Origin: a bacterium
GTDB lineage: Bacteria; Patescibacteriota; Patescibacteriia; JAHIZJ01
DNA length: 58,937 nt
Assembly: GCA_030699685.1 (NCBI GenBank)
Contig: JAUYLJ010000016.1
Span: 1 to 58,937 of the forward strand
Reading direction: 5' to 3'
Each line of letters opens with the position of its first letter. The stretch's first letter is position 1. Made by a program: the position numbers and the translations under genes. Positions 1,673 to 53,490 of the stretch are shown here, piece by piece. Under the pieces are notes generated by a model. It was not told the origin of the DNA. It made no database searches and saw only the letters and a program-made list of their open reading frames with translations.

Positions 1673-1675
1673 CAA

Positions 1676-2406: not shown

Positions 2407-2411
2407 TGCCT

Positions 2412-2786: not shown

Positions 2787-2798
2787 TATACTTCTTCT

Positions 2799-3110
2799 AT
2801 GTCAAAAAAAATATCAAGAGGCGTTGTTCACGATATTCCCGCTGATTTGCGTGACGCTCTTACTTCCGACGCAAAAGCCCTCGCACTTTGGGAGGATCTT
2901 ACACCGCTTGCACGTAATGAGTGGATTTGCTGGGTTACCTTTGTCAAAAAAGAGGAAACAAGAAACGATCATGTTCGAAGGGTTGTGAGCGAGCTGAAGG
3001 AAGGGATGCGCCGGCCATGTTGCTGGATAGGTTGTATTCACCGGAAGGATAAAGCGGTGAGCCCTTCAGTAAAGGCTCTGGTACTTGATAAACAGCGTAG
3101 GTCAAAATAA
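2799..3110 (+). CDS. YdeI/OmpD-associated family protein
   Basis: PADLRDAL...WEDLTPLARNEWICWV...RRPCCWIGCIHR. Confidence 0.85.
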   Translation: MSKKISRGVVHDIPADLRDALTSDAKALALWEDLTPLARNEWICWVTFVKKEETRNDHVRRVVSELKEGMRRPCCWIGCIHRKDKAVSPSVKALVLDKQRRSK

Positions 3111-12155: not shown

Positions 12156-12379
12156 AGTATTGCGAGCTGTTACGAGTTATGCATTCTTTGTAGAATGCCG
12201 AGCATTTTGATGATCATACTGATGGTAGCGAAAAGCTGCGTATTCGTCAAGCAGCGCCTCATATTGTTTCTCTGAAGTATTATCCTTCCCACTTCACGCC
12301 CTTGGTATAGAGCGAAGAAACGCTGGAACAAGCCTTCCAGCCCGGATAGACCACCCCATCTCCCAGTAGCAGCCAAATT

Positions 12380-12646
12380 CTAAGAGGCTGATTGTAATTG
12401 ATAATACGTTCGGACCGGCAAATCCCCTTGGTTTAATGAAACCGGTACCCATTGCGACAGCCATTGAAGCGCTGGCTGACACAGGCGGCTATACCGTACC
12501 CAGTGGGTTGTTCCACCGAACCCCATAGTCTCGGTCACTATGCCTTCTCTCCAAGTTACGTACGCGCCCGGCGTCGGGTTGCCACGGGAATCTGGCAATT
12601 GTATTTTCGTAACATTCTCAATCAGTGAATTACCGCATCCATGCAT
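12380..12646 (-). CDS. Hypothetical protein
   Basis: 88-aa ORF with SD TAAGGAG upstream; no recognisable motif. Confidence 0.45.
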   Translation of the reverse strand: MHGCGNSLIENVTKIQLPDSRGNPTPGAYVTWREGIVTETMGFGGTTHWVRYSRLCQPALQWLSQWVPVSLNQGDLPVRTYYQLQSAS

Positions 12647-12776
12647 TGAGTTGTTCTCCTTATTTTTCTACGGGTAGATTGACTGTGCACAAAAAAAGAA
12701 CCCCCTAACCTTATGGCACTGGGGTTCTTCGATAAGATATTTCTACACAACTATGTATTGAACGTCTGTTTTTTTG

Positions 12777-15461
12777 TTATTTACAGTTGCATTTCCAGCG
12801 GGCCGTTTCATCTCCGACAATCTCTGCTTTCTGAGCGCACTTATATTGATTACCACCGGTGCCGTTGAGGCTGTTGCATTCATCCGCTGAGCTGAATACT
12901 TCAACCGCCCAATTTTCATAATCCCGGCTGGTTATGCCAAGATTGTTGCAGGTCTTATTAATTGATTGACAGTATTCTATACAATTATTAAATTCGGCCA
13001 GATTAATGCATCCGGACCAGGTTCCGTCTCGGACTATTTCACCCGGACCAAGCGGATTGTAGCCGCTTGTTATTTCGGTATAATCATCATAGCCGTCACT
13101 GTCCGTGTCAGCTTTTGTCTTGTCAGTACCATAATACTGCTCATCTATGTCGTTTATTCGATCTCCATCAGTATCCTCGTTTGCTACAACAGCTTCATCG
13201 AGTAATGAATCAATTATCTTTTTCATTTGTGCAAACTCAATAGTGCCACCATGAAACACGCCGTTAATATAAAAACTCGGCGTTCCGCTAATCCCTAATT
13301 CACCACCTGCCAGAAAAGCATCCTCTACAACCGTTTTATATTTTTCTGAAGATAAGCATTCATCGAATGTATCGATGTCTAATTCAATATTCTGAGCAAT
13401 GGTTGTCAAATATGTTTCCGTAAGATCTGGCTGATTTTCATAAACCATATCAACATACTCCCAGAATTTATCCTGGTCGTTGGCACATTCTGATGCTTCA
13501 GCGGCCTTCAGGGCTAATGGGTGAATAGTATCAACTGGAAAATGTCTGAACACCCATCTGACATCATCCGAATATTCTTCTACAACTTGTTTCATAGTGT
13601 CATGAAAAGTCGCGCAATATGGACACTGCAGATCAGCATACTCAACTATAGTTACCGCACTGTCCGAAACCCCAATAACATGATCATCACCGTTTACAAC
13701 CATGATATTCTCTGTGCTTGGATTAGCTACTGTTGTATTCGTGTTTGAGTTGGTATTGGTATTAGTGTTTGTATTAAAGTTCAACGGCTTATAGCTATAA
13801 CCTTCTCCCTCCAGAGACACATCAGTTTTGGTTGCTGTGTTTGTCCCTTCAGCATATTCATCCGCATAATAGCTGCTGGCGTCTTCCGGAATTTCCATCT
13901 CGTATTTTAGTTCATAGTCGTCATCCTTTGCCATATAATCATACTTATCTTCCGTATATATATCGATAATAGAGACAGTACTGTTATAATCGTAGCAGGA
14001 CACGAAGTTGCTGTCATAGTCTATGTTGCCGCTCTCGTTCAAGGCTTTATCCCGTCGTTCCTCAGCCTCTTTCTTTTTTTGCTCACACTCTTCTTTGAGA
14101 ATAGGCACTTCATCCTCCAACGCGCTTAACGTCTCCGGGAACTTGTTACGATCGTCATTATAGTTATCAAGCGCTGTGCGAATATCATTAACCCTAGTTC
14201 TTTGCCGATCAAAATTCTGTTCTTCCAAAGATTTTCCTGTTATCAATCGTTCAGCTTCATTGTAGTCAATCGTGGTACTGGGCACGTCAACTTTAACCTT
14301 CTCGTTTATTTTATCCAAGGTCGTGACTAGACTGAGGTTAAGCTGTTTACCTTTCAGGCTTTCTATTTTTTCAGGTGGCACCAAGATAAACTCTATTTTT
14401 GCCTGGCGTATGAAACCGTTTGTTTTATCCAGCCAGACTTCAATATTGGTATTAGCAACTATTTTTTTCACTATTTCGGCATTGGTTTCGTCTTCGTAAT
14501 ATTTGTTGAATTGCTCCAGCGAGCTTTCAATATTTTTTACGTCATCACCGCGCTCTTTCATTTTGTCAATCAGCTTGCCAAATGCCCCAGCAATGGCATC
14601 GGGATTTATTTCCACTGTATAATGCTCGGACTTTACTCCCGTAATGACTTCAGATGCTTTTTTACCGCTGAGTTTAAACAACTCGGCGTCAAAAGCGGCC
14701 TGCAACGCATCAGTCATCTTTTGTACCGCTTCTTCATACTTGAAGCTGGAATAGCCGGACTTAATGCTTTCTCCAAATCCGTCTTCCGGCGTCATTATTA
14801 CCCACTTCTCTTTAATACTAGATACGTCAAAAAAGAACAAGCTGGGAAACTTCCTGATAATACCGTAAAAATTTTCGGCCACTTTTCTAATTTCTAAATC
14901 CGCTTCAACTGTCAAATCTCCACCGGAGTAACTACCGCCTATTTGCCATAGAAAATCTGCATCCTTAGGGTCAACATCAGTTTCGAAGTAGATAGTGGTA
15001 CCGACCGTAAGATCGAGTTCGCCCGGAAACACCCCAAACAAATCGTCAATATCATTGTAGCCAATACCCATTGGCGCCAGAGAGTCTAAAGTATCAAGCG
15101 CATCCTCAGCTTTTTCCTCCTCTTCCTTAGTTTTATAGATTGAAGTGTATTTTGAATCGTGTTCCTCGGTTTTGGCTCTGAATGTTAGTTCATACTTGGC
15201 GTTATCAATATTCGAAAATGAATTAATGAATTTTTCTACCAATTCATCACTGCTGGGAGTCAAATAAGGAATGCTGATATAGCCATGGCTGTAAGCCCAA
15301 TAACCGAATCCGCCTAGCAGTCCGACAATTAAAACAACCGCAATAACCTTAATTATTAGCGGGTTGGCAGGTGGTGACTTTTTTTCCGGTTCTGGGCTTT
15401 CGTTTTCGCTTTGACGTGCAGCTCCTTCAATAGGCGGAGGGATGATTATTTTTTCCTCCAT
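12777..15461 (-). CDS. Membrane-anchored multidomain protein with a DsbA/thioredoxin-like domain
   Basis: N-terminal TM; EYADLQCPYC, FRHFP and GISGTPSFYING (DsbA family); DTDGD/DTDSDG Ca-binding-type repeats; Cys-rich C-terminus. Confidence 0.85.
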   Translation of the reverse strand: MEEKIIIPPPIEGAARQSENESPEPEKKSPPANPLIIKVIAVVLIVGLLGGFGYWAYSHGYISIPYLTPSSDELVEKFINSFSNIDNAKYELTFRAKTEEHDSKYTSIYKTKEEEEKAEDALDTLDSLAPMGIGYNDIDDLFGVFPGELDLTVGTTIYFETDVDPKDADFLWQIGGSYSGGDLTVEADLEIRKVAENFYGIIRKFPSLFFFDVSSIKEKWVIMTPEDGFGESIKSGYSSFKYEEAVQKMTDALQAAFDAELFKLSGKKASEVITGVKSEHYTVEINPDAIAGAFGKLIDKMKERGDDVKNIESSLEQFNKYYEDETNAEIVKKIVANTNIEVWLDKTNGFIRQAKIEFILVPPEKIESLKGKQLNLSLVTTLDKINEKVKVDVPSTTIDYNEAERLITGKSLEEQNFDRQRTRVNDIRTALDNYNDDRNKFPETLSALEDEVPILKEECEQKKKEAEERRDKALNESGNIDYDSNFVSCYDYNSTVSIIDIYTEDKYDYMAKDDDYELKYEMEIPEDASSYYADEYAEGTNTATKTDVSLEGEGYSYKPLNFNTNTNTNTNSNTNTTVANPSTENIMVVNGDDHVIGVSDSAVTIVEYADLQCPYCATFHDTMKQVVEEYSDDVRWVFRHFPVDTIHPLALKAAEASECANDQDKFWEYVDMVYENQPDLTETYLTTIAQNIELDIDTFDECLSSEKYKTVVEDAFLAGGELGISGTPSFYINGVFHGGTIEFAQMKKIIDSLLDEAVVANEDTDGDRINDIDEQYYGTDKTKADTDSDGYDDYTEITSGYNPLGPGEIVRDGTWSGCINLAEFNNCIEYCQSINKTCNNLGITSRDYENWAVEVFSSADECNSLNGTGGNQYKCAQKAEIVGDETARWKCNCK

Positions 15462-15712
15462 ATTGGTGTTTTTATTTTTAGCTATTCTTTATTATAGCAT
15501 ATTTTCAAAAAAAATCAAGCCTATTCTGGACTTTAGAGAAGCAAAGATTGACAGCAAAATAAAGAAATGTGTAACTTCCCTGAAGGTGTTTGTATTCGGG
15601 GTAGCTTGAATAAGGGGGTGGTTCCGTGCCGAGCAGTCGCGCTTTTTATTTTCACGACAAGCGATCCCCAAAACAAGCTTGGTGCTGTGCGCGTCAAGAA
15701 TGTTGCTTGCAG

Positions 15713-17071
15713 CTACTCTATTGCTGAATAAATATGAGAGTAGATTGTGTTTCGGTAATTATCCAGTTCAGTGACCTCATTGGTTTCAAGATTCCACACC
15801 GCCATGGGCGCAGGATAATTGAAATCAGTTTCCGGTACTTCATCAGGCACATGGTCTGGTGATATAGACAGTATTAGCAGCACCAGATGATTGCCAATCC
15901 AGTAAGCTTCGTTCGCTTCTACGTTTTCTGGCGTGGAATAATCCACCATGGTGGTTCCGTCAGCCGGCATTTTTCTCAGGACATCGTCAAAGGGATCAAA
16001 ATGATAGAGATCGCCAGTGGCGTTGTCCCAGGAAGCTGCAAGGGCATTCAATGGACGCGTCAGGTTTGTGATCTGACGAAATTTAGCTTCGGCCGGCGCA
16101 TACTCCCAGAACCAGGTCCAAGAATCCAAAATATCAGACTGAAAAACCTGCTCCAACACGACGAGCCGTGAACCGTCGGGTGAAAGCGCGCTTTGGTAAC
16201 TCGAATGCTCGCCGCTTAAAAGTAGCGTCCGGGTGTCGGAGGCGGTGTCCAGTAACTCCACTTTGCCGGGCCAGATCAGGACCAACTGGCTATCGCCGAC
16301 TCGATGCGCCTCACTTGGAAGCCACAGCTCGCTGGTCTGGGCAAAGTCTCCGCTAGACGCTTCCGGTTCAATGCTGCTCAATAATTGACCTTCTCCACTA
16401 CCGAGGTCGAACTCCCAAATTTCAGCCCGGGAATTGTCGTTGGCGTAAATTGCTCCCGGATCCGCGTAGACGCATACCTGTTTCACGACAAGAATCTTTT
16501 GATTCTCGGAATCGGCGGAAAAGCTTGGGATAATGTCGTAACAGTTTTCTTCATAATACGTCACGCCTTCCGACTCAGTCACCGTGCTCTCACTGGTGCT
16601 CCGATGCAGCTCAATCGGTTCTTGCCAGGTCCGAGTCACGGAATCAAATATTTCTAGCCAGTGTATGGTTTCATCTTCGCTGTCTTCGGTATTGAACATT
16701 GCCAGAAGAGTACCGCCGATCGGTGTAATATTTCCGGAGCGATAGAAGTTCATCGGTAGCCAGGATTGATTCACATCCAGCACCTCTGCCTGGGCAGGCG
16801 ATTCGGAACGCAGCAGAGGGTCAATTGAAGATAAGACAATAAAGGACTGCCCATTGATTGTGAGGCTAGTCAGCGCTCCTTCGTTTCCATCGTCGAGTGA
16901 ATTTGGCAAAGTGCCGGAATCGAGATCGTTATCCACCCTCTCATTATTAAGCGTCTGCGTGTTAGTATTGTTGCTATTATCCGGAAGATAGGCCAAAACC
17001 GCAATCAATCCGATAGCGATTACTAGAAGAACGACAACTAGGATAAGCCTCGAACTACCTTTTTGGGTCAT
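15713..17071 (-). CDS. Membrane-anchored acidic hypothetical protein, possible beta-propeller
   Basis: N-terminal TM, N/T-rich linker and LSPDGSRL blade-like motif. Confidence 0.7.
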   Translation of the reverse strand: MTQKGSSRLILVVVLLVIAIGLIAVLAYLPDNSNNTNTQTLNNERVDNDLDSGTLPNSLDDGNEGALTSLTINGQSFIVLSSIDPLLRSESPAQAEVLDVNQSWLPMNFYRSGNITPIGGTLLAMFNTEDSEDETIHWLEIFDSVTRTWQEPIELHRSTSESTVTESEGVTYYEENCYDIIPSFSADSENQKILVVKQVCVYADPGAIYANDNSRAEIWEFDLGSGEGQLLSSIEPEASSGDFAQTSELWLPSEAHRVGDSQLVLIWPGKVELLDTASDTRTLLLSGEHSSYQSALSPDGSRLVVLEQVFQSDILDSWTWFWEYAPAEAKFRQITNLTRPLNALAASWDNATGDLYHFDPFDDVLRKMPADGTTMVDYSTPENVEANEAYWIGNHLVLLILSISPDHVPDEVPETDFNYPAPMAVWNLETNEVTELDNYRNTIYSHIYSAIE

Positions 17072-17201
17072 TGTATTTATTATAAAGTTCTTATGAACAG
17101 TATATCATGTTCATGCGAAGGAGGAAGTCAGGGAAGAAAAAACGCCACAATACCAAACAACTTTGTCCACGCGTGAAACTGGTTTGGTGTTTGGGCGAGT
17201 C

Positions 17202-19865
17202 CTATCTGTTCCCGTGCCGCGCGATCACGTCCTCGGCTTCTTCCATCTTGACCGAGAGAATCTTCGACACGCCGTCGCTTTGCATGGTCACGCCGTAGAG
17301 CAGATTGGCTTTCTGCATGGTGGCGCGATTGTGGGTGATGGAGATGAACTGAGTGGAGTGGGCCAGCTCGTCGAGAATATTGGCCAGCTTGAGAGAGTTG
17401 GCTTCATCGAGGGCGGCGTCTACCTCGTCCAGGACGACGAAGGGCGATGGATTGTTGGCAATGATGGCGCAGATCAGCGCGATGGACGTCAGTGCTTTTT
17501 CTCCGCCGGATAGCATGTTGATGCTGGAAATGCGTTTTCCAGGCGGGACGGCGTGGATATCAATACCACTAATGGCTTTGCCGATCACCTTTGGTTGGCG
17601 TGGTGACTTTTCCTCTTCGCTATTTTCCTCCTCGTCATCCTCTTCTTCGTCGTAGTCGTCTTGTTCAGCCAGGATATCAGACTTTTGTAATACGAGCTTG
17701 GCTGAACCCCCTTTGAACAACATCTTGAAATAGCGGCCGAACTCGGCGCTGATTTTCTGGAAAGCGCGATCGAACTGCTGCTTAATGGTTTCATCAAGCT
17801 CCCCGATAGCTTTTTCGAGCGAGGCCAAGGCAGCCAGAAGATCCTCAGATTGCCCTTTTAGGAATTCGTGACGTTCGTTTGTTTGTTCAAATTCATCCGT
17901 TACCCCTTCGTCAATTCCGCCGATTAGCTCAAGCTGGCGTTTCAATTGATGGATTGAGTCAAGAAGAGAAGCGGCAGTTTGTTCGCCGAGGAATTGTTTC
18001 GGATCTTTGGCAATGTCGTCCACTGTCGGCTCAGGCAGCTCCTCTCGCATTTCCCGATTGAGGTCATCACGACGCGTCTCCAGCCGTGCTTGTTGCACTC
18101 GATGCTCGTTCAATGTCTGGGTGACGGCGTTGAGCTCGTTTTGATGATCGCGGAATTGCTTTTGCAGACGGAACAAATAATCTTTTTTCTCCTGCTCTTG
18201 CTGATTGAAACTGGTAATTTTTTCTCGGGCTGTTTTGAGTTCCTGATCAAGTTTCTCAATTTTTGCCGTCAGATGCTTGTGTTCGGTATCTTCAGCGTTG
18301 GCGTCCTTATCTTTGCCTTCAAGTTGTCTCAGTTCTTTATCCGCTCGTTCGAGCTCGCTTTCCACTTCACTTTGTTTATCGTGGAGAACGAGATCTTTTT
18401 CTTCCAGAGTGCGGACTGTTACGACCAGATCGTTTATTTCGTTGACCAAGTTGTCTTTTGACTTCAAGAAGTTTGACAGCTCGCTTTGGAGCCGCAGCAC
18501 TTCTTCGGTGGTGGTGGTTGGAGCCGAGCGGGCAATCTCCTTGGTATATTTATCCAGGCTGTGGTGGATATCCTGGGCTTGGCGCTTAAGTCGAGTGATG
18601 TCGTCAGCCGATTCGGCAGTATTCAGTTTTTTTAAGAATTCGGCATATCGAGTTTCGATAGTCCGTAGATGGTCGGCAATTTCCGGAATGGGCAAGGGTT
18701 TGTTGGCAGTCAGCCGTTCGCGAGCTACCAGCAGCGTTTGTTCCAGATCTTCAAACTGACTGACGACCTTGGCCTGATCCTTGCGTTTCCGCTCTAACTC
18801 GCTGCGGGCGCTTTGAAGCTTCTTCTTCAGCGGTTCCATATCGTCGCTCAATTCTTGCTGGGTGCGGACTAGCAACTCACGGCGTTTCGTCAGCCATACT
18901 TTATTGACCTCACCCGCCTGCATGGATTCCATTTCCCAGCGGCCTTTCAGCGAAGCCTGCTCTTGCAGCAAAGTGTTTTTCTCATCAAGTACGCGGTTGT
19001 ACTCTTTTTGCAGCTGGCGGAAACTCTCTTCCCGAGACGTCTCCCGTTCTATTTTCTCAAGTTCATTTTGTACCTTGCGCAATTTGGCTGCCGCCTCATT
19101 TTTCACTTTTTCAGTATCGTTTTGCTGGGTGCTGACGACGTCGAGTTCGTTTTTCAGCTCCTGCCAGAGACCGCTGTAATATTGCTTTTGCACTTCCCGC
19201 AGCTCGGCTTCCACGGTTTCGCGTTTTTCCAAGCGCCGTACCTGGCGGGTGAGCGTACGCAGGCGGGGTTCGATTTCTTGCAATAGGAGCTCGGCTTGAC
19301 GCAAATTATCCTTGGTTCGATCAAGCTTCTGTTCGGCCTGCTCTTTCTTGATCTGGTATTGGCGGACGCCGGCCGCTTCGTCAAAAAACTCCTTCCGTTC
19401 CTGCGACGAAGAATTCAAAATTGAATCAATCATGCCCTGGCCGATGACGGAGTAGCTGCGCTGGCCGAAGTTGGATTTAGCCAGGAGAAGGACGATGTCT
19501 TGAAGCCGCACCTTGTTCTTATTGAGCAGGTATTCACCTTCGCCTGAGCGGTGCATGCGGCGGGTGATGACTACTTCCGGGTAATCAATCGCCATCGCCC
19601 CATCCTCATTATTAATATGCAAAGAAACTTCAGCCATGCCCAGCCTGGCTTTTTTGTCGGAACCGGAAAAAATCACATCTTCGGACTTCTTTCCTCGCAA
19701 AAGCTTGAGGCTCTGTTCGCCCATCACCCAGCGGATAGCATCGGCCACGTTGGATTTGCCAGAACCATTCGGCCCGACGATGGCGGCGATACCCCGGTTG
19801 AATTCCATCACGGTTTTGTTCGCGAAGGACTTGAAGCCCTGTATTTCGATTTTTTGGAGATGCAT
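17202..19865 (-). CDS. smc: SMC-family chromosome segregation ATPase (short form)
   Basis: GFKSF, Walker A GPNGSGKSN, signature LSGGEK, Walker B VVLDEVDAALD and long coiled coils; 887 aa. Confidence 0.93.
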   Translation of the reverse strand: MHLQKIEIQGFKSFANKTVMEFNRGIAAIVGPNGSGKSNVADAIRWVMGEQSLKLLRGKKSEDVIFSGSDKKARLGMAEVSLHINNEDGAMAIDYPEVVITRRMHRSGEGEYLLNKNKVRLQDIVLLLAKSNFGQRSYSVIGQGMIDSILNSSSQERKEFFDEAAGVRQYQIKKEQAEQKLDRTKDNLRQAELLLQEIEPRLRTLTRQVRRLEKRETVEAELREVQKQYYSGLWQELKNELDVVSTQQNDTEKVKNEAAAKLRKVQNELEKIERETSREESFRQLQKEYNRVLDEKNTLLQEQASLKGRWEMESMQAGEVNKVWLTKRRELLVRTQQELSDDMEPLKKKLQSARSELERKRKDQAKVVSQFEDLEQTLLVARERLTANKPLPIPEIADHLRTIETRYAEFLKKLNTAESADDITRLKRQAQDIHHSLDKYTKEIARSAPTTTTEEVLRLQSELSNFLKSKDNLVNEINDLVVTVRTLEEKDLVLHDKQSEVESELERADKELRQLEGKDKDANAEDTEHKHLTAKIEKLDQELKTAREKITSFNQQEQEKKDYLFRLQKQFRDHQNELNAVTQTLNEHRVQQARLETRRDDLNREMREELPEPTVDDIAKDPKQFLGEQTAASLLDSIHQLKRQLELIGGIDEGVTDEFEQTNERHEFLKGQSEDLLAALASLEKAIGELDETIKQQFDRAFQKISAEFGRYFKMLFKGGSAKLVLQKSDILAEQDDYDEEEDDEEENSEEEKSPRQPKVIGKAISGIDIHAVPPGKRISSINMLSGGEKALTSIALICAIIANNPSPFVVLDEVDAALDEANSLKLANILDELAHSTQFISITHNRATMQKANLLYGVTMQSDGVSKILSVKMEEAEDVIARHGNR

Positions 19866-46578: not shown

Positions 46579-46914
46579 GGGTTAATGACGATATCAGAAT
46601 ATCACTAACGGCATAGGTTGAGCAATAATCCAGTAGCCCATGCAAGCGCGAGGACATGAACAATTTTAGTGTTCAAGGTCGTTTTGGGAGTAGGGTATAG
46701 ATTGACCGGGAGTGAAAAATATGATACAATGAAGGTGTCGGTTGGAATCGGTGTCGCGGCAAACTACCGCCACCGATCCACAAAACAAAAACAAAATTCA
46801 AGCACGAAGGTGAAAAAACAAAAACAAAACCGCATTTGGGATATTTGCTATTCCCGAGGCGTGGTCGGACATTCAGACGGGCCGTATTATTCCCGTCACC
46901 AATCAGGCGTCACC

Positions 46915-48861
46915 GTGACGGAAAAAGCGTTGCGGGTTTTCGGGTTCATGATTGCGGCGTTTCTGTCGGCACAGATTCTCAACGGTGCGCAGAATTATCT
47001 GCTGCAGGATCGAGGCGTGCTGGCCTATTTTGAATCCAACATTGTTCGAGAACGCATCAGTCTGGGCTATGTGGGCAGCTATTTTCCGCCAAACCCCGAT
47101 GGCCAGATTGGTGAATATCCCGAAACGGCGGAAGGAGACGATGCTTCGACCGTATTGTCCGCCAATACTCATCGTGCCCGAATAGCCGCGGCGGCTGAAG
47201 GCCTGGCGGCCAGCGTAACCGTGCCTGATTATCGTGCAGAGCTGGTCAGTCAGAATTACAAAACGATAAATATCGCGCCAGGCCGAGCTTTCACATTTGA
47301 AGCTCGTTTTCGTAATACCGGCCGGGCGGATTGGACGAAGCAGGGCCCTCATTATATCGGCGTCAATGTGACTGATCCCGCGGGACGTCACTCGCCTTTT
47401 TGGCATCCGTTTTGGAGCGAATATTACTATCGGTCCGGCAGACTGGTCGAAACCAAAGTAGCTCCGGGCGAGGTGGGCACTTTCCGTTTTGCCCTCCAAG
47501 CGCCGGCAAAAGAAGGCAGCTATCGTGAAAGTTTTCACCTAGTCGCGGAGCATCTGACTTGGATCAGCGGCGGGAAAATGTCTCTAGAAATCCAGGTTTT
47601 GCCTCGTTACCAGGCTGAGATCATCAGCCAAACGGACTCCCTGACAGTAAGCCCGGGGGCAGTGGCGAAAGTGACCGTTGAGGCTCGCAATACGGGTGCT
47701 GAAGCGTGGAGTAATAGCGGTGAGAATTTTATCGCCTTAAACGTAACGGCGCCGACTGGCCGCCACTCAAAATTTCAGCATGCCAGCTGGGATGAATATT
47801 ACTATCGCCCTACCCGGCTCGAGACCAGCCGCGTTTCCTCCGGCCAGACGGGAGCGTTTGAGTTCACTATCCAGGCCCCGCTGCAATCTGGCAGCTATAC
47901 TGAGAGTTTTGGCATCGTGGCTGAAAACGCCGCCTGGCTTCCTGGCGGAAACGTAACCATTCCAATCACCGTTACGCAGACAGACGCCAGTGTCCGTGCC
48001 GGCGAACCGAGCGTTCGGGTGGGTTTGTATCAGGCTGAAAGCCAGGTTCAACTGACCGGTTTGGACAATTTTCGACTTATTGACGGCGGAGGTGAAATCG
48101 TGGCTGAGTATGCTTCGGGGGTTCCAGTCACGATTTCGTTTTCCGCAACCTCGTTTGAGGTTAACGCTGATGGCGTGCGGCAGAGCTTGACCGGGCCGAT
48201 CCGGTTCGAAGCGATCGACGACGCGACGGTGTTTGAACTTTTGAATTATGAAAACCGTCCAGAGTGGAATCTGGCGCTGAACGATAATATGTTTCGCGGC
48301 GTTATCGAGATTCGCCAGGTTGACGATTCGGATCAGGTCTGGGTGATCAATGAGCTGCCGCTGGAACAATATTTGTTGGGGGTGGCAGAATCGTCCAATG
48401 AAAATCCAACCGAATTTCTGAAAGCGCTCGCCGTGGCGGAACGAAGCTATGTTTTGTACCACCTGGCCAATGGCGGGAAACATCAGGACGAGGGCTTCAC
48501 CGTGGACGCGAAGTACGATCAAGTGTATCGCGGATACAACTTCGAGCTTCGAGCTCCCGCGGTGGGGAAAAATGTATTAACCACGGCGGGGCAAGCGGTA
48601 GCGTATGAGGATGAGGTGGTGGTTACACCATATTTTTCCCATTCCGATGGCCGAACCCGATCCTGGGAAGAGGTATGGTCAGGCGGTCCTTATCCGTGGC
48701 TCGAAACCGTGGCCGATCCGGCCAGTGCCGGCAAGCAGATGAGCGGCCATGGCGTCGGGATGAGCGCGCTCGGCGCAAGAAGCATGGCTGAAGACGGAGC
48801 TTTATACGAAGACATTCTCGCGTATTATTATTCGGGAACCGTTTTGTTGGCCGTCTATTAA
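46915..48861 (+). CDS. SpoIID/LytB domain protein with two NBR1-Ig-like repeats
   Basis: INELPLEQYLLGV.E, KALAVA.RSY, DQVY.G and GHGVGMS..GA motifs; start uncertain (ORF is open from 46669). Confidence 0.85.
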   Translation: MTEKALRVFGFMIAAFLSAQILNGAQNYLLQDRGVLAYFESNIVRERISLGYVGSYFPPNPDGQIGEYPETAEGDDASTVLSANTHRARIAAAAEGLAASVTVPDYRAELVSQNYKTINIAPGRAFTFEARFRNTGRADWTKQGPHYIGVNVTDPAGRHSPFWHPFWSEYYYRSGRLVETKVAPGEVGTFRFALQAPAKEGSYRESFHLVAEHLTWISGGKMSLEIQVLPRYQAEIISQTDSLTVSPGAVAKVTVEARNTGAEAWSNSGENFIALNVTAPTGRHSKFQHASWDEYYYRPTRLETSRVSSGQTGAFEFTIQAPLQSGSYTESFGIVAENAAWLPGGNVTIPITVTQTDASVRAGEPSVRVGLYQAESQVQLTGLDNFRLIDGGGEIVAEYASGVPVTISFSATSFEVNADGVRQSLTGPIRFEAIDDATVFELLNYENRPEWNLALNDNMFRGVIEIRQVDDSDQVWVINELPLEQYLLGVAESSNENPTEFLKALAVAERSYVLYHLANGGKHQDEGFTVDAKYDQVYRGYNFELRAPAVGKNVLTTAGQAVAYEDEVVVTPYFSHSDGRTRSWEEVWSGGPYPWLETVADPASAGKQMSGHGVGMSALGARSMAEDGALYEDILAYYYSGTVLLAVY

Positions 48862-48884
48862 ATCGGTTCCAGGGGGGAAAACGA

Positions 48885-49181
48885 ATGCTTTCGTTACTAA
48901 TAAAAAAAGATTACGAAAAAAATGAGTGGCGGCATTTTCTTATGCAGCAAGGATTTTTTCAGGATGAACTCAGTATTCCTCGGCCGGGGTCGAGAGAATT
49001 GCAAAATCTGTTGTCCTGTGCCAGAAACTATGTCAGTCAGAAAGAAATGTCCCGCAACCCTCTAGTCTATCTGGAGGCAATCAGTTATTGCGTTCTGCGA
49101 AAATCGTACGATGCTTTAGAAGCGTCACAACAACGGGCGGTTGCAAGTTTCGCGGAGCACATTGGGCATAGATCCGCATAA
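48885..49181 (+). CDS. Hypothetical protein
   Basis: 98-aa ORF co-oriented with and tightly spaced between neighbours. Confidence 0.55.
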   Translation: MLSLLIKKDYEKNEWRHFLMQQGFFQDELSIPRPGSRELQNLLSCARNYVSQKEMSRNPLVYLEAISYCVLRKSYDALEASQQRAVASFAEHIGHRSA

Positions 49182-49197
49182 ATCAATACTAATCAAA

Positions 49198-50082
49198 ATG
49201 AATAAATCAATAAATAGCATACTTGCGATTATCGTGCTCGCCATCCCGGCGGCGTTGATTGTCATATACGGATTTTACAAAGACAACTCTTATGACCTGC
49301 AGCCGAATTATATCAGCAGGAATTCTTCCTCAGAAGTACGGGCATCGTTTTCAGACCTTCAATCAGTTTGTGACATTTTGACATCAAAACGATGGACGTA
49401 CACCAGGCAGAATTCATCTTTACTGGCTAATGAAATAGCCTCGTGGAGCTTTGACGCTGAAGGCGGGGTGGAGTATAGATTCTTTTCCGACTACGAAGAT
49501 ACTGACGTGGGCAGATGGTATCCTCTGCGAATTGTAACCAACCTGGAAGCCGAGGTGCTCCTGCTGATGGATCCGATCGACGCGGTACAGGCTACCGGGG
49601 TCTATTCCGTGAAGCTGGATGAGAACGGGCTGAACATTGATGGCGCTCCTTTTCTTGGCGATGAGCGTTCGATTGTCGATATGGAGGGCTGTGATTTTTT
49701 CCGGAGTCAAACGTCGGAAGACGATTATGCCGCTTACGAAGCGCTGACCTCGCAGGAATGGGGCAATGATGAATTTACCTTTGCGTTTTCTGACCAAGCT
49801 ACCTATGTTCAAGATCAGTCCAACGCGAATTTCGAAGGGAAATGGAATATCACCGAAGTGAAGGAAGGTGAGGGCACGCTCACGCTTGACGGTTGGTTTG
49901 AATTCGATAGAAATGGCAATGCGATTGACCAAGTGGACAGGAGAAACGGTTGGGCGCGATATCGTTTCAACCTCTCGGAAACCAGTCTTAGCCTGGAACT
50001 TATTGAGTATAAAGATAATTTAGTTGACACGCTCCCGCTGGTGGATCAGCTTGGTGAGGCTATCGTTTTAACTCCTCAATAA
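49198..50082 (+). CDS. Membrane-anchored protein with two lipocalin-like beta repeats
   Basis: N-terminal TM; LTS..W....F....G.W pattern occurs twice; ATG 49198. Confidence 0.65.
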   Translation: MNKSINSILAIIVLAIPAALIVIYGFYKDNSYDLQPNYISRNSSSEVRASFSDLQSVCDILTSKRWTYTRQNSSLLANEIASWSFDAEGGVEYRFFSDYEDTDVGRWYPLRIVTNLEAEVLLLMDPIDAVQATGVYSVKLDENGLNIDGAPFLGDERSIVDMEGCDFFRSQTSEDDYAAYEALTSQEWGNDEFTFAFSDQATYVQDQSNANFEGKWNITEVKEGEGTLTLDGWFEFDRNGNAIDQVDRRNGWARYRFNLSETSLSLELIEYKDNLVDTLPLVDQLGEAIVLTPQ

Positions 50083-50289
50083 AGAGCTAGTTGTTGCATG
50101 GATATTGCTCAATGGGGAACCCTTTTGTTTTTCTCATTTCGAGTTGTGTTACTATAGCTTGGCAAGATCCTCTGTACCCAAGGGTCGTAGGAGAGGGAAG
50201 AACGCTTCTTTATCAAAGGGGTATGCCAACGATCTCTCTTTTACTTTTTTAAAAACAAAAACCGGACTCAGGGTCCGGGGAAAGAATGT

Positions 50290-51720
50290 TCAAACGAAGG
50301 TGGTTGCTTCTTCAGTCTCGGTTGCCTTCGGCGGGCTGAAGTGAGAATCAGCCTTTTGAGGTTTCTGGCGAAGAAGAAAGGTCAGCACCAAGGGCGGAAT
50401 CAGCGTAGTCAGTACCACCATGATGATGACTACTGAGAAGACCGTATCCGGCACCACTCCCAATGCCTGCCCGATAGTGATAAAGATCAGACCCACTTCT
50501 CCGCGCGGTACCATGCCCCAGCCTACCACCAGCCTGTTGCCCTTTCCCGCAGCCAGGCCAGCCACTAGCTTACCGATGAAAGCGGCTAGGGTGATGCCAA
50601 GCGCCATGAGCATGACCGCAGGATCGGCAAAGGTAGTCAGCTCCACCCCCATCGAAGTCCGTACGAAGAAAACCGGAACAAAGACATAGGCCAGGGGTTG
50701 AATCAGATCCTCAACATGCGAGTGATTGGCTTGATGGACCAGGGTGGCAAGCGACGTCCGTTGCTCTCTGCTCATTCCTTGAGTGGCGCTTTCGATGTCG
50801 CGACAGATCTTTGGAGAATCGAAGCTCCTGAAGTCGACGGGATCCAGGACAAGCCCAGCCGCGAAGGCTCCGACGATCGGTGCCAGACCGGCCACGCCCG
50901 CCACGTAAGAGGTGATCAGCCCGAAGCTTAGGGCGAAACAGAGCTTCATGCCGGGTCCAGTGTCAAGACGCGAGAAGAAGCGACTGATGTGGCCCGCGAA
51001 GAGCATTCCGAAAAGGATTGCTCCGGCCAGGAAGAGAAAGGCTTTGAAGAAGATGACACCTACGACCAACAAGCTGACTGATCCGGCCGTAACGATTGAT
51101 CTGACCACGGTGAGAAACAACAAACCGAATACGTCGTCAATCACCGCCGCCCCAGATACCAACTTGGCCGCGATCGATGATATTTGACCCAGATCTTCAA
51201 AGACGCGAGCGGTAATGCCGACGGAAGTGGCCGTCAATGTCGCGCCCAGGAACAGGTAGGTGTGAGCTTCGTATCCCGGCATGACCAGCGGGCCAACGAC
51301 TTTCCAACCCAGAACAAAGGGGACAATGACACCGATGATGGCGATCATAAGCGCCCGAAGGCCCACTGCCCGCATCTCCCGCAAGTTGGACTCCAGGCCT
51401 ATCTTGAAAAGCAGGAGCATTACCCCGAATTCCGACAGGAACCCGATAACCGCGTCGGTTTTCATGGGCTCCAGATAGTGGAACCCGATCAGGCCAAGGT
51501 TGCCCAGAAGTATTCCGACGAAGAGTTCGCCCAGAACTTCCGGTTGACGAAAGCGCTTGACGGCCGCTCCCGCAATCTTGGCTGACAGGATAATCAGCGC
51601 CAGCCAAAGCAGGGTAATTGCGGAGTGAGAGCCTATTTCCCCGTCCGAGGCTTGGGCGGGGGTATGGACGCCACATAGAAGAATAGCGGTGATAGAGAGC
51701 CAGAATTTCAGCCTGATCAT
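50290..51720 (-). CDS. Cation:proton antiporter (Na+/H+ exchanger, CPA2-like)
   Basis: P.VLGEL..G, GLES, ATSVGIT, AAVIDD and GMVPRGEVG motifs; ATG 51720 after AAAGGA. Confidence 0.93.
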   Translation of the reverse strand: MIRLKFWLSITAILLCGVHTPAQASDGEIGSHSAITLLWLALIILSAKIAGAAVKRFRQPEVLGELFVGILLGNLGLIGFHYLEPMKTDAVIGFLSEFGVMLLLFKIGLESNLREMRAVGLRALMIAIIGVIVPFVLGWKVVGPLVMPGYEAHTYLFLGATLTATSVGITARVFEDLGQISSIAAKLVSGAAVIDDVFGLLFLTVVRSIVTAGSVSLLVVGVIFFKAFLFLAGAILFGMLFAGHISRFFSRLDTGPGMKLCFALSFGLITSYVAGVAGLAPIVGAFAAGLVLDPVDFRSFDSPKICRDIESATQGMSREQRTSLATLVHQANHSHVEDLIQPLAYVFVPVFFVRTSMGVELTTFADPAVMLMALGITLAAFIGKLVAGLAAGKGNRLVVGWGMVPRGEVGLIFITIGQALGVVPDTVFSVVIIMVVLTTLIPPLVLTFLLRQKPQKADSHFSPPKATETEEATTFV

Positions 51721-51971
51721 AGATTCCTTTCCAGGGGCTGTACCGAAAGTGAAAGAACATGCAGCTAACTTCCAGCGATAGTATACAGAATTTAGCCTAC
51801 TAGGCAAGCCTGGCAAAATCCGGATCAGTGGATAACCGGATAAAAAAGAACCCCGGGCGGTATTTTAATGGAGATAAATGGCTTTGTGGTCAAAGTAGAT
51901 GTCAGACGAAATGCTACTCCCGTATACAAACACGACTAGATGCATGATAACGGTTGTTTTTATGCAACGAA

Positions 51972-52494
51972 CATCGCGTCGCCAAAAGAAGCGGTCAGTA
52001 TCATTGAAAAACAAAAAGGCCCTCGAATTAGCGAGCGGCCAGTCTTTCTACTTCTGTGCGTGAGCTGGACTCAGTGACTCCGAGACGACGCATAAGCTTC
52101 GCCTGCTCTTGTCTTTTCGTCTCGGTACACTCCGTGCAGCACTGTTTTCTAACAACGAGTGCCTGGGCGAGGCGCAGTACCACTCGAGAAGCGGTAACCG
52201 AACCAAGCGAAAAAGATCTTCCTTCTCCAGAAATTCTTCGGACGATCAGTTCGTGTTCGGCGACTGGGTTTTCTCCCTTCTGCTTACAGTAGTAGCACCT
52301 GGATCGAGACGGTCGTTCGTACACCTCAGCGCTGACTGAGAAGTTCCAACCTAAGTAAATGAGCTGGTATCTGTGCACGTTTCCTCCTCATTCAGTCTAT
52401 TCTGAAACGCTTATCCAGAACCCGACACAATAACCAACATTCTATCACATGTCAAGTGTCGTGTTTATGTAATCAGCATCGCGTCGCCAAAAGA
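51972..52494 (-). mobile_element. 505-bp insertion at the queA 3' end, bounded by 18-bp direct repeats
   Basis: CATCGCGTCGCCAAAAGA at 51972-51989 and 52477-52494; the distal copy continues as an alternative queA end, SFGDAMFVA*. Confidence 0.75.
52028..52378 (-). CDS. Small basic protein with two CxxC motifs (putative Zn finger)
   Basis: SD AGGAGG and GTG start; CYYC and CTEC; promoter TTGACA-17-TATTGT (52455-52427). Confidence 0.7.
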   Translation of the reverse strand: MHRYQLIYLGWNFSVSAEVYERPSRSRCYYCKQKGENPVAEHELIVRRISGEGRSFSLGSVTASRVVLRLAQALVVRKQCCTECTETKRQEQAKLMRRLGVTESSSRTEVERLAAR

Positions 52495-53490
52495 GTAGAA
52501 ACGATAGTGTTTTTTAATTGCTGTTTCGTAGGCTTTGAGGACTTTCGTCCGTCCAGCAAAGGCGGACACGAGTATGAACAAAGTTGATTTTGGCAAATGA
52601 AAGTTGGTGATCATGGCGTCAGTCATTTTGAATTTGTAGCCGGGTATGATGAAGATATTAGTTGACTGGCTGATTTGTTGATTCGTTAATTGGCGAGGCA
52701 GGCTTTCGAGCGTGCGAACGGTGGTGGTGCCGACAGCGATGATGCGCCGCCCCTCTCTTTTAGCTTTGACCAGCCGTTGATAAACCGCCTTTGACATCTC
52801 TAGATGTTCAGGATGCATTCGGTGACGTTCGATGGTCGTTTCTTTGACCGGCTGGAAGGTTCCGTAGCCGACGTGCAGCGTGACATATTCGATCTGGACG
52901 CCCAGCGTTCGTATGCGGTTCATGAGTCGATTCGTGAAATGAAAACCGGCAGTTGGCGCGGCCACTGATCCGGATTTTTTTGCGAACACTGTTTGATATT
53001 CTTTGAGATTGGAAAGGCGTTTAACGTACGGGGGCGTAGGAGCGGTACCGAGCCGATGGATAGCGGCTCGGAGTTTCGCGCCGGACCGGTTGAAACGAAT
53101 ATGCCAAGTGCCGTTGGTGAGGTGTTTGATAACAACTCCTTTCAGACCGCCAAACCTTTGTTTTTCCATGCTGATTTCAAGACCGACCCGCCGCCCTTTC
53201 CCGCCCAAGAGGCACTCCCAGGTATTCGCGCTGACAGGCTTGAGCAAAAACACTTCTATTTTTCCTCCACTTTCTTTTCGGGCATTGAGACGGGCCGGAA
53301 AGACTTTTGTATTATTCAAAACGAGTACGTCGCCTGATTTGAGATATTCAGTAATTTCAAAAAAATGCCGGTGACTGATCGCTCCGGTTTTTCGGTTGAG
53401 CACCAAAAGACGTGATTGATCGCGCGGCCGGACCGGTTTCTGGGCGATTCGATCAGGAGGAAGGTGAAAATCAAAAAGTGACAGTTTCAT
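52465..53490 (-). CDS. queA: S-adenosylmethionine:tRNA ribosyltransferase-isomerase
   Basis: IAQ.P, GSVAAPTAG.HF, TLHVG.GTF, TNFHLPKSTL and YRFYSFGDAM motifs. Confidence 0.98.
   Translation of the reverse strand: MKLSLFDFHLPPDRIAQKPVRPRDQSRLLVLNRKTGAISHRHFFEITEYLKSGDVLVLNNTKVFPARLNARKESGGKIEVFLLKPVSANTWECLLGGKGRRVGLEISMEKQRFGGLKGVVIKHLTNGTWHIRFNRSGAKLRAAIHRLGTAPTPPYVKRLSNLKEYQTVFAKKSGSVAAPTAGFHFTNRLMNRIRTLGVQIEYVTLHVGYGTFQPVKETTIERHRMHPEHLEMSKAVYQRLVKAKREGRRIIAVGTTTVRTLESLPRQLTNQQISQSTNIFIIPGYKFKMTDAMITNFHLPKSTLFILVSAFAGRTKVLKAYETAIKKHYRFYSFGDAMLIT

What the first reader, a model, noticed from the sequence alone, without database searches (positions are those of the whole stretch)
51960..52494. 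505-bp integrase-less mini-island that replaced the 3' end of queA
Seen: an exact 18-bp direct repeat encoding SFGDAM. queA now ends SFGDAMLIT*, while the distal copy reads SFGDAMFVA* with the stop at the same distance. Between them lie only a promoter, SD, one CxxC-CxxC gene and a terminator. Knowledge: this is the attL/attR signature of elements that integrate into a gene's 3' end and restore it. Inference: a minimal cassette mobilised in trans, or the residue of a larger island; it may reveal how the SD-led cassettes arrive.
Basis: partly seen in the sequence, partly recalled or inferred. Interest (0 to 1): 0.7.

Follow-up and report, generated by a model that had tools for sequence, protein, structure and literature searches.

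The report
Displaced queA gene tail beside orphan gene
A second copy of the last few codons of the housekeeping gene queA lies 505 bases downstream, behind one small orphan gene, and it looks like the scar of gene gain by recombination at a spot that often changes in these tiny-genome bacteria, not the border of a working mobile element.

Summary
An exact 18-nt repeat encoding SFGDAM occurs twice, 505 nt apart. It extends to 47 nt at 79% identity. Between the copies lie a promoter-like site, an SD, a 116-aa Cys-rich ORF and a terminator. The ORF is a real gene: one 114-aa homologue (60% identity) turned up among 1.84 billion representatives.

The insert lies in a variable slot. All six relatives examined keep queA convergent with SpoIID, with a gap of about 50 to 1,690 nt. 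Here the gap is 3,603 nt and holds three genes not found around queA in any of them.

A second queA tail within 3 kb recurs in 7 of 267 motif-bearing Patescibacteria genomes (777 searched; about 0.05 expected by chance). Repeat length and cargo vary, and no recombinase family matched the 10 flanked ORFs I scanned. In the six other pairs, 33 of 40 differences fall at third codon positions, so those tails evolved as working gene ends in different lineages.

I read the repeat as a displaced gene tail left by recombinational gene gain, with homology on one side and illegitimate joining on the other. A mini-island moved by an integrase in trans is not supported, but it is not excluded. No empty site or circular junction could be tested. 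Earlier notes of this scan report the same scar at queA in two other genomes.

The parts
52465..53490 (-). queA (S-adenosylmethionine:tRNA ribosyltransferase-isomerase), 341 aa, ends YSFGDAMLIT*
   Evidence: PF02547 E 2.3e-126, full length. About 70% identical to QueA of six family relatives, whose visible tails end MLI[ILSV]* (5 of 5 seen).
52448..52494 (-). Proximal copy of the 47-nt repeat: last 9 codons of queA, stop, and 17 nt after it. The exact 18-nt core is 52477-52494.
52427..52455 (-). Promoter-like site TTGACA-17-TATTGT. Its -35 lies inside the repeated 3' UTR segment. An alternative TAAACA-17-TAGAAT with TG lies at 52467-52439.
   Evidence: Consensus scan, 10 of 12 matches. Function not shown. 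No terminator lies between queA and the ORF, so co-transcription with queA is equally possible.
52383..52389 (-). Shine-Dalgarno GAGGAGG, 4 nt before the GTG start
   Evidence: Read from the sequence
52028..52378 (-). Cargo gene: 116-aa basic protein (pI 9.8) with Cys 28/31 and 80/81/84. Orphan family of two known members.
   Evidence: One true homologue, P0001 (114 aa, 60% identity over residues 4-116, E 2.5e-34, all five Cys conserved). No Pfam, NCBIfam or significant PHROG match. AF2 model unusable, pLDDT 43.8.
52007..52040 (-). Intrinsic terminator: 8-bp G+C stem with one bulge, stop codon in the loop, then UUUUUGUUUUU
   Evidence: Fold -16.9 kcal/mol, z -2.0; sequence
51943..51989 (-). 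Distal, non-coding copy of the queA end: SFGDAMFVA*, stop at 51960-51962, plus 17 nt. The exact core is 51972-51989.
   Evidence: 'FVA' was seen in none of 107 other queA tails, but F (30/107), V (4/107) and a final A all occur.
51815..51831 (+). 17-nt perfect inverted copy of an internal queA segment (partner at 52962-52978, codons for KSGSV). It lies 111 nt beyond the 47-nt distal copy (140 nt beyond its exact core), just upstream of the exchanger's promoter-like site. Unexplained.
   Evidence: One of only 8 exact inverted repeats of 17 nt or more (spacing 30-3000) in the 1.15-Mb genome.
50290..51720 (-). Na+/H+ exchanger gene directly behind the distal tail. Also lineage-specific content of the slot.
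   Evidence: PF00999 E 2e-53. Not found in 5 of 5 family relatives searched. Best relatives 49-56% identical, labelled as many phyla and archaea.
49141..50082 (+). 313-aa hypothetical gene, third lineage-specific gene of the slot
   Evidence: No Pfam family. No match in the 17-kb queA regions of six relatives.
46669..48861 (+). SpoIID-domain gene, convergent with queA. Conserved right border of the variable slot.
   Evidence: PF08486. queA, then convergent SpoIID, flippase, glycosyltransferase and Wzy are kept in order in all six relatives examined.

Best explanation
The second queA end is a displaced gene tail. It is the scar of a recombinational gene gain in a lineage-variable slot between queA and the convergent SpoIID gene.

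Proposed course of events: DNA from a fairly close relative, carrying its own queA end, was joined in by homology on one side and an illegitimate join on the other. This is homology-facilitated illegitimate recombination, also described as 3'-end displacement or insertion with long target duplication. One queA end stays in frame and keeps the gene whole. The other is left downstream as non-coding DNA.

The unit between the tails is one real small gene with its own SD and terminator. It encodes a basic protein that probably binds zinc through four cysteines; its role is unknown. It is read either from its own promoter-like site or by read-through from queA.

Shown: the repeat, the anatomy, the variable slot, the recurrence of such tails at queA, the lack of a linked recombinase, and the coding-type divergence of the tails in the six other cases.

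Inferred: the recombination route, and that this case arose in the same way. Which side came in is open. Either queA end plus cargo was imported, or the distal tail came with the exchanger block.
For: 1. Variable slot. In 6 of 6 relatives examined, queA is followed by convergent SpoIID, flippase, GT and Wzy. The queA-SpoIID gap is about 50, 390, 390, 1,150, 1,690 and 1,690 nt. Here it is 3,603 nt, with three genes that have no match in those regions.

2. Recurrence. The SFGDAM-coding motif occurs twice on one strand within 3 kb in 7 of 267 motif-bearing genomes (777 Patescibacteria searched). About 0.05 is expected by chance. Spacings are 87, 98, 326, 505, 1,620, 1,980 and 2,880 nt.

3. No recombinase. 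Across the four of those loci that I scanned with Pfam, no recombinase family matched any of the 15 ORFs (10 of them lie between the tails). Flanked ORFs with a match: RidA/L-PSP plus a P-loop protein in one genome and NUDIX in another; 7 of the 10 matched nothing. In three cases only 60-230 nt lie between the tails; one of these, G463, was not scanned, only listed, with no ORF of 70 aa or more.

4. Both tails once coded. In the six other pairs the differences fall at codon positions 1/2/3 as 7/0/33, with 28 synonymous and 9 non-synonymous codons (chi-square p = 1.4e-10). The stop sits at the same offset in 7 of 7. Similarity ends at or just after the stop, as expected for orthologous gene ends from different lineages.

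5. No common core. Copied-tail lengths vary, and two pairs share no exact run over 5 nt. Those tails cannot have been joined by a crossover inside the tail.

6. Turnover. Two species of one genus share the distal-tail flank but hold different cargo. A third kept the cargo and lost the tail.

7. Here, the differences are 0/18 in the core against 10/29 outside it (Fisher p = 0.008). This argues against a once-identical duplicate that drifted evenly.

8. The mechanism is known. Passages of PMC5361080 describe one-sided homology plus illegitimate joining and displaced 3' ends. The abstract of PMC3240628 describes the same route. Passages of PMC2853133 describe integrase-less inserts flanked by 46-47-bp repeats that overlap a gene's 3' end.
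Against: - No genome with the empty site, and no donor, was found. The closest QueA is 70% identical in the species-representative genomes and at most 48% in the metagenome contigs scanned. The route is therefore inferred by analogy.
- In this pair the coding-divergence test has no power. It shows 0 synonymous and 3 non-synonymous codon differences in 9 codons.
- The 11/17 similarity after the stop, at or above the top of what the six other pairs show over 20 nt (4-7 of 20), fits a local duplication or a very close donor.
- The 17-nt inverted queA fragment nearby is not predicted by this model.
- An element-borne replacement tail of a site-specific integrative element would also diverge mainly at third positions. 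Point 4 therefore does not separate this reading from rival 1.
- Kin are not independent: two of the seven cases are from one genus.
Confidence: 0.55

Rival explanations
1. A minimal integrative cassette, or the residue of a larger island, inserted by a site-specific recombinase acting in trans. attB is the conserved queA end and the 18-nt identity is the crossover core. The proximal LIT* tail was brought by the element.
For: - Exact 18-nt identity with a sharp left edge, a replacement tail that keeps queA whole, and the stop at the same offset.
- Such tails recur at queA, and all seven pairs include the last 9 codons.
- The genome holds two Xer/integron-integrase-like tyrosine recombinases.
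- Earlier notes of this scan (not checked here) describe integron-like cassette sites elsewhere in this genome.
- Element-borne tails would also show third-position divergence.
Against: - No recombinase lies in the insert, in the slot, or among the 15 ORFs scanned in four of the six other loci. No serine recombinase was found in the genome.
- The cassette has no second copy and the cargo gene no paralogue in the genome. It was not found in 400 class genomes, the species-representative genomes, IMG/VR or the JGI contigs.
- Logan contigs show no excision or empty-site joint.
- Copied-tail lengths vary, and two pairs lack any shared run over 5 nt.
- No attC-like palindrome lies in the 505 nt, only the terminator.
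Confidence: 0.2
2. A local event inside this genome. A repair or replication template switch (FoSTeS/MMBIR-like), or an insertion with true target duplication, copied the resident 47 nt. The copies then diverged.
For: - The two copies resemble each other after the stop (11/17). No family relative's 3' UTR looked alignable by eye.
- There are no synonymous differences in the core.
- A 17-nt perfect inverted copy of an internal queA segment lies 111 nt beyond the distal copy. It is one of 8 such repeats in the genome. Short templated patches from nearby DNA are typical of template switching; that statement rests on my own knowledge.
Against: - 0/18 against 10/29 differences (p = 0.008). If the distal copy drifted neutrally, about 3 changes would be expected in the core.
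- The 17-mer is perfect while the tail copy is 21% diverged, so they are unlikely to be the same age.
- It does not explain where the cargo gene, which has a 60%-identical homologue elsewhere, came from.
- The six other queA pairs are clearly not local duplicates.
Confidence: 0.17
3. Chance resemblance or assembly artefact. An unrelated stretch happens to read SFGDAM, or two strains were joined wrongly.
For: Only about 5 of the 18 core positions are free under coding constraint. 1 of 107 unrelated queA tails has the identical 18-mer. No single Logan contig bridges both copies.
Against: - 0 of 100 shuffles gave two matches.
- The similarity runs on through the stop and 17 nt beyond it, at the same offset.
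- The repeat is shorter than the word size I assume for the contigs, 31 nt (my assumption, not stated by any tool). Error-free contigs from two samples cover each junction with unique flanks.
Confidence: 0.03

Closest known systems
C-terminal (3'-end) displacement by homology-facilitated illegitimate recombination: rhs/CDI toxin tips and the T6SS effector-immunity arrays of Vibrio cholerae (Kirchberger et al. 2017, PMC5361080, passages read; it cites de Vries & Wackernagel 2002, Prudhomme et al. 2002 and Jackson et al. 2009, which I did not read)
   Same: The conserved part of a gene serves as the homology anchor. Incoming DNA supplies a new 3' end plus new gene(s). The old 3' end is pushed downstream and remains as an orphan. 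No integrase is involved, and arrays and turnover result.
   Different: There the displaced ends are variable toxin domains with immunity genes under strong diversifying selection. Here the gene is a housekeeping tRNA-modification enzyme, the displaced piece is only 9 codons, and the cargo is unrelated to queA. No donor or intermediate form was found here.
Insertion with long target duplication (Nobusato et al. 2000, recalled and not read; Furuta, Abe & Kobayashi 2010, PMC2853133, passages read)
   Same: Genes inserted without any mobility gene, flanked by direct repeats of tens to hundreds of bp. Examples include 46-47 bp repeats, some overlapping the 3' end of a gene.
   Different: Those repeats are nearly identical to each other and to the empty target in a sister strain (for example 44/46), and the cargo is restriction-modification genes. 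Here the copies are 37/47 identical, no empty-site genome exists, and in the six other queA cases the two tails come from different lineages rather than from one duplicated target.
Integrative elements that enter the 3' end of a protein gene and carry a replacement end
   Same: The two-tail anatomy: an intact gene with a substitute end, and the old end left as a pseudo-tail at the far border.
   Different: Those elements encode their integrase, are kilobases long, and are found with empty sites and excised circles. None of that was found here.
Integron gene cassettes and integrase-less cassette arrays (CALIN; recalled, and named in earlier notes on this genome)
   Same: A single promoter-poor or SD-led ORF as the unit, with no integrase in view.
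   Different: There is no attC-like imperfect palindrome at the cassette end, and the repeat is a gene tail rather than a recombination hairpin.

Membership tests
Site-specific integrative element at a gene 3' end (e14/icd type) | Direct repeats flank the insert, and one of them completes the target gene | tested here: met
   47-nt repeat; queA stays whole with LIT*; distal SFGDAMFVA*
Site-specific integrative element at a gene 3' end (e14/icd type) | A tyrosine or serine recombinase is encoded in or next to the element | tested here: not met
   No recombinase family among the genes at 38.5-58.8 kb of the window. Genome-wide, two Xer-like tyrosine recombinases on contigs C22 and C63 and 0 Resolvase matches.
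Site-specific integrative element at a gene 3' end (e14/icd type) | An empty site in strains or relatives, or an excised circle | tested here: inconclusive
   No joint across the 505 nt in the contigs of 4 runs, but contigs drop rare forms. No close relative was available.
Site-specific integrative element at a gene 3' end (e14/icd type) | The same element is found again, at the same site in other genomes or as further copies | tested here: not met
   The cargo was found only in this genome among 401 class genomes, and not in the species-representative genomes, IMG/VR or the JGI contigs. The one homologue, P0001, lies on a 1,786-nt contig that I could not fetch.
Site-specific integrative element at a gene 3' end (e14/icd type) | The two sites share an identical crossover core | tested here: inconclusive
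   Met here (18 nt). Among the six other queA pairs the longest shared run is 26, 21, 17, 10, 5 and 5 nt.
Insertion with long target duplication (Furuta et al. 2010) | Insert under 20 kb, no mobility gene, flanking direct repeat over 30 bp | tested here: met
   505-nt spacing, 47-nt repeat, no mobility gene. Criteria as given in PMC2853133. Only 18 nt are exact.
Insertion with long target duplication (Furuta et al. 2010) | The repeat occurs once in a genome without the insert, and both copies match it closely | not testable with these tools
   No empty-site genome was found. The copies match each other only 37/47.
3'-end displacement by homology-facilitated illegitimate recombination | Intact gene with a new end plus new gene(s), followed by the orphaned old end | tested here: met
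   The slot content is lineage-specific.
3'-end displacement by homology-facilitated illegitimate recombination | The two ends come from different lineages, shown by coding-type divergence | tested here: inconclusive
   This pair: differences at codon positions 3/0/1, with 0 synonymous and 3 non-synonymous codons in 9. The six other queA pairs: 7/0/33, p = 1.4e-10.
3'-end displacement by homology-facilitated illegitimate recombination | A donor arrangement exists in another lineage (the same gene end followed by the same cargo) | tested here: not met
   0 of 80 exchanger loci carry a queA-tail motif. One has a queA about 3 kb downstream of the exchanger, which is not the arrangement seen here. 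The cargo homologue's context is unavailable.
Integron cassette | An attC imperfect palindrome at the 3' end of the cassette | tested here: not met
   The only hairpin in the 505 nt is the G+C terminator stem. No Rfam match.

The most novel reading that the evidence does not exclude
The conserved last 9 codons of queA are a true attachment site in Patescibacteria. On this reading, a chromosomal Xer/integron-integrase-like recombinase acting in trans shuttles integrase-less units of one to a few genes, each carrying its own queA end, between lineages. The 505-bp unit would then be the smallest complete example, and the bare tail pairs of 87-326 nt in other genomes would be emptied sites.
Probability: 0.12. 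Interest if true: 0.75.

Novelty: new member of a known kind. Interest (0 to 1): 0.35.

Why it matters
These ultra-small bacteria are uncultivated and have few recognisable mobile elements, so how they gain genes is poorly known. This locus, with six parallel cases, suggests one route. The highly conserved end of a housekeeping gene may serve as the foothold for joining in foreign DNA, leaving a displaced gene tail as a datable scar. Such scars could be counted across genomes to map gene-gain hotspots and donor lineages. The single case is ordinary. The recurrence at queA (about 2.6% of genomes that carry the motif) is the more useful result. Earlier notes of this scan had already seen it in two other genomes.

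Tried and rejected
- Cargo function. There was no Pfam, NCBIfam or significant PHROG match. The ESM Atlas gave only unnamed clusters at 0.90. The AF2 model had pLDDT 43.8, so no fold search was run. A profile search of the PDB gave the phage PP7 coat protein at E = 1 for the monomer; the E = 0.002 hit is the tandem dimer counted twice. hhalign against the PP7 coat gave probability 8.6% over 33 residues, and tblastn against 50,697 phage records found nothing. I rejected this as chance. An HNH-like reading of CxxC...CxxC was considered by eye and dropped, because the expected His/Asn positions are absent.\n- Other hits of the exhaustive search (P0002-P0006) are long repetitive proteins. I judged them spurious from the three sequences I read, P0001-P0003.\n- Looking for the cargo homologue's locus. 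It was not in the species-representative genomes, IMG/VR or the JGI metagenome contigs. The tool that looks up encoding contigs is closed.\n- Looking for close relatives or an empty site. The QueA scan of metagenome contigs gave at most 48% identity, and the first scan of genome contigs gave 3 distant loci.\n- Is the exchanger normally next to queA? 0 of 80 loci carry a tail motif.\n- Composition. The cargo has GC 0.53 and a CAI-like value of 0.71, against 0.77 +/- 0.025 for long ORFs. The exchanger has GC 0.56. Neither is decisive.\n- Rfam found nothing at 48.8-53.7 kb, and no tRNA lies at 45-58.9 kb.\n- Logan contigs. Runs X3 and X4 hold only conserved queA pieces of other organisms. The contig break at 52412-52440 in X1 is unexplained, and no loose end there appears among the rows shown.\n- Other direct repeats in the genome. 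The C6 repeats are five tandem paralogues that share a PEP-utilizers mobile domain, not a tail scar.\n- One Dehalococcoidia locus (L167) has a queA tail repeated with a tandemly duplicated downstream gene. It belongs to a different phylum and is not counted among the seven.\n- Literature. A search for queA with 'integration site' and 'genomic island' gave 1 paper, and the island there is in tRNA-Leu next to queA, not in queA. A search for Patescibacteria with 'genomic island', 'direct repeats' and 'integrase' gave 2 versions of a groundwater virus paper, seen in the listing only and not pursued. These two searches are the only basis for my finding no published report of a queA-tail insertion site.
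Full report
**What is there.**

The window is contig C55 of a 1.15-Mb, 70-contig genome that is 97% complete. Earlier notes of this scan call it Patescibacteria. It recurs in groundwater metagenome runs.

On the minus strand, queA (52465-53490; PF02547, E 2e-126) ends YSFGDAMLIT*. The 18 nt that encode SFGDAM recur exactly 505 nt downstream (51972-51989), followed by FVA and a stop at the same offset. None of 100 shuffles gave two matches.

The similarity runs without gaps over 47 nt, 37 of them identical:
- 18/18 in the core;
- 5/9 in the last three codons;
- 3/3 in the stop;
- 11/17 after the stop (P = 6e-4).

The left edge is sharp. The 15 nt upstream of the core match at chance level (read by eye).

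Between the copies lie a promoter-like site whose -35 sits in the repeated UTR, GAGGAGG four bases before a GTG, a 116-aa ORF, and a good intrinsic terminator. There is no terminator between queA and the ORF.

Error-free Logan contigs of two samples from one study cover each junction with unique flanks. None bridges both copies, and none shows a joint that skips the insert.

**The cargo is a real gene of unknown role.**

An exhaustive search of 1.84 billion representatives gave one true relative, P0001. It is 114 aa, 60% identical from end to end (E 2.5e-34), has the same start region and keeps all five cysteines. A profile of the two found nothing more among 5.8 billion clusters.

The protein is basic (pI 9.8). 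Its CxxC and CCxxC motifs suggest one zinc site; this is inference. No family library, atlas or structure search gave a usable lead.

P0001 sits on a single 1,786-nt contig that none of the open collections holds. Whether it too follows a queA end is unknown.

**The surroundings: a variable slot.**

Five family relatives (QueA about 70% identical) and one class relative all keep the same order: queA, convergent SpoIID, flippase, glycosyltransferase, Wzy.

The gap between the queA stop and the SpoIID stop is about 50 nt in one relative, about 390 nt in two, about 1,150 nt in one and about 1,690 nt in two. Here it is 3,603 nt. It holds the cargo, a Na+/H+ exchanger and a 313-aa hypothetical gene, and none of them has a match in those 17-kb regions.

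The exchanger was not found in 5 of 5 family relatives searched. Its best relatives are 49-56% identical and are labelled as many different phyla and archaea. So all three genes of the slot are lineage-specific gains.

The five family relatives whose queA end could be read all end MLI[ILSV]*. The working LIT* tail therefore looks native to the family. FVA* was seen in none of 107 other tails, although each of its residues does occur at that position.

**Is this a one-off?**

Within this genome, yes. Of 849 gene tails tested, queA's alone has a downstream copy that is not explained by paralogy, internal repeats or an A+T-rich run.

Across genomes, no. I searched the degenerate motif for SFGDAM in 401 genomes of the class and 376 further genomes of the phylum (777 in all, this genome included). 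267 carry it.

I located every genome that had two or more matches on one strand. Seven have two matches on the same contig and strand within 3 kb: this one, G132, G208, G021, G357, G291 and G463. Chance would give about 0.05. Two of the seven belong to one genus, so they are not independent.

The count is a lower bound. A fourth genome of that genus has a second tail too diverged for the motif. G099 has a second match at the very start of another contig.

Among 16 other queA loci checked earlier within 1.5 kb, none had a copy. Among 86 mostly non-Patescibacteria loci, one Dehalococcoidia locus had the tail repeated together with a tandemly duplicated downstream gene.

Earlier notes of this scan describe two more queA-tail repeats in other genomes: 47 bp around purL, and 415 bp around an NhaP antiporter. 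I did not check them. They gave me the lead to run the wider scan.

**What the seven cases share, and what varies.**

Shared:
- The distal copy keeps the stop at the same offset in 7 of 7.
- Similarity ends at or just after the stop.
- No recombinase family matched any of the 15 ORFs scanned with Pfam in four of the six other loci; 10 of them lie between the tails. G357 has no ORF of 70 aa or more between its tails, and G463 was only listed, not scanned.

Variable:
- Spacing runs from 87 to 2,880 nt.
- The copied tail runs from about 27-30 nt (here, G291, G357) through about 50 nt (G021, G208) and about 80-97 nt (G463) to over 100 nt (G132).
- The content differs. G208 has RidA plus a P-loop protein, G021 has NUDIX, and G132 has a 661-aa hypothetical protein. 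G291 has only a terminator hairpin, and G357 and G463 have only 60-230 nt of non-coding DNA.

In genus g21, two species share the flank of the distal tail but hold different cargo. A third kept the NUDIX cargo and lost the tail. This is an old scar with turnover around it.

**The key test.**

If a tail were duplicated in place and one copy then decayed, the differences should spread evenly over codon positions.

In the six other pairs they fall 7/0/33 over positions 1/2/3, with 28 synonymous and 9 non-synonymous codons (p = 1.4e-10). Both tails therefore evolved as working gene ends. They come from different lineages and were brought together by gene transfer.

Two pairs (G291, G357) share no exact run longer than 5 nt. 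There the tails cannot have been joined by a crossover inside the tail, and the join must lie at the left edge of the distal copy.

One-sided homology plus an illegitimate join gives exactly this outcome. It is documented for naturally transformable bacteria, and it has been proposed for displaced 3' ends of rhs and T6SS loci (PMC5361080, passages; PMC3240628, abstract).

Integrase-less inserts flanked by 46-47-bp repeats that overlap a gene's 3' end are also in print as 'insertion with long target duplication' (PMC2853133, passages).

**This case.**

The pair here differs at positions 3/0/1, with 0 synonymous and 3 non-synonymous codons in 9. The test has no power.

The exact 18-mer is less telling than it seems. 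If both copies once coded SFGDAM, only about 5 positions are free, and the chance of no difference at the divergence seen outside the core is about 0.12. 1 of 107 unrelated tails has the same 18-mer.

The contrast of 0/18 with 10/29 differences (p = 0.008) still argues against an evenly drifting local duplicate. The 11/17 match after the stop says the two tails are much closer to each other than to any family relative. If there was a donor, it was a near relative.

Which DNA came in is open.
- (a) Imported queA end (LIT*) plus cargo, joined just before the resident SFGDAMFVA* tail. In that case the exchanger was already there.
- (b) The resident queA with the cargo stayed. A block beginning with a relative's FVA* tail and carrying the exchanger was joined in behind the cargo's terminator.

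The family-typical LIT* and the foreign look of the exchanger lean slightly towards (b). In that case the '505-bp island' is not the imported piece at all.

**What does not fit.**

A perfect 17-nt inverted copy of an internal queA segment lies 111 nt beyond the distal copy, directly upstream of the exchanger's promoter-like site. Its arms are at 51815-51831 and 52962-52978. It is one of only 8 such repeats in the genome.

It could be a templated patch from a repair event, which would favour the local-rearrangement rival. It could also be an operator or an RNA-pairing site. I cannot tell which.

**Site-specific mobility.**

The two-tail anatomy is also what an integrative element with a replacement end leaves, and such tails would also diverge at third positions. 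So this rival is not excluded.

Against it:
- No recombinase is linked here or among the ORFs scanned in four of the six other loci.
- The genome has only two Xer-like tyrosine recombinases and no serine recombinase.
- The cassette has no second copy and was not found in any other genome searched.
- No empty-site or circle joint was seen in contigs.
- No core is shared by all cases.

I put this rival at about 0.2, and the bolder form (queA's end as a true att site served in trans) at about 0.12.

**Verdict.**

The best reading is a displaced gene tail that marks recombinational gene gain in a variable slot (confidence 0.55). This is a new member of a known kind. The scan had already met the same scar at queA on other DNA. 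The interest lies less in this 505-bp unit than in the measured recurrence of such scars at queA.

Noticed in passing
window 51815-51831 and 52962-52978: Perfect 17-nt inverted repeat. One arm lies inside queA (codons for KSGSV). The other lies in the spacer just upstream of the Na+/H+ exchanger's promoter-like site and contains the palindrome ATCCGGAT. It is one of only 8 exact inverted repeats of 17 nt or more (spacing 30-3000) in the genome. It could be a templated repair patch, an operator or a long-range RNA pairing site.
   Followed up: partly
window 48862-52464: The gap between queA and the convergent SpoIID gene is a lineage-variable slot, about 50 nt to 3.6 kb among seven genomes. The genes upstream of queA here (277-aa and 656-aa C39-peptidase-like proteins) also have no match within 8 kb of queA in six relatives, so queA sits at a synteny break on both sides.
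   Followed up: partly
genome contig C6 about 12270-19450 (locus L222 1771-8953): Five tandem genes of 356-519 aa, followed by a sixth, unscanned ORF that carries the fourth repeat copy. Each of the five ends in a PEP-utilising-enzyme mobile domain, with a 241-nt repeat at four of the gene junctions (62-100% identity). This is an unusual paralogue array for a 1.15-Mb genome.
   Followed up: partly
genome contig C18 56285-56884 (locus L223): One intact tRNA-Leu(UAA) at C18:56404-56489. An extra exact copy of its 5' half lies 118 nt upstream and an extra copy of its 3' half lies 394 nt downstream. Each extra copy adjoins a 48-nt repeat. This could be a second tRNA-Leu gene that is interrupted (by an intron or an insertion), or an integration scar.
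   Followed up: no
loci L218 (G291) and L217 (G357): Two other Patescibacteria have two queA ends only 87 and 98 nt apart, with nothing but a hairpin or short spacer between them. The tails differ almost only at synonymous positions.
   Followed up: partly
locus L167 (a Dehalococcoidia MAG): The last roughly 25 nt of queA, together with a convergent 200-aa gene, are tandemly duplicated. The unit is about 650 nt; the first 84 nt are identical and the rest about 81% identical.
   Followed up: partly
window 52412-52440: Logan contigs of run X1 break and overlap by 29 nt inside the cargo's promoter region, while run X2 reads through. This may reflect strain variation at this spot.
   Followed up: no
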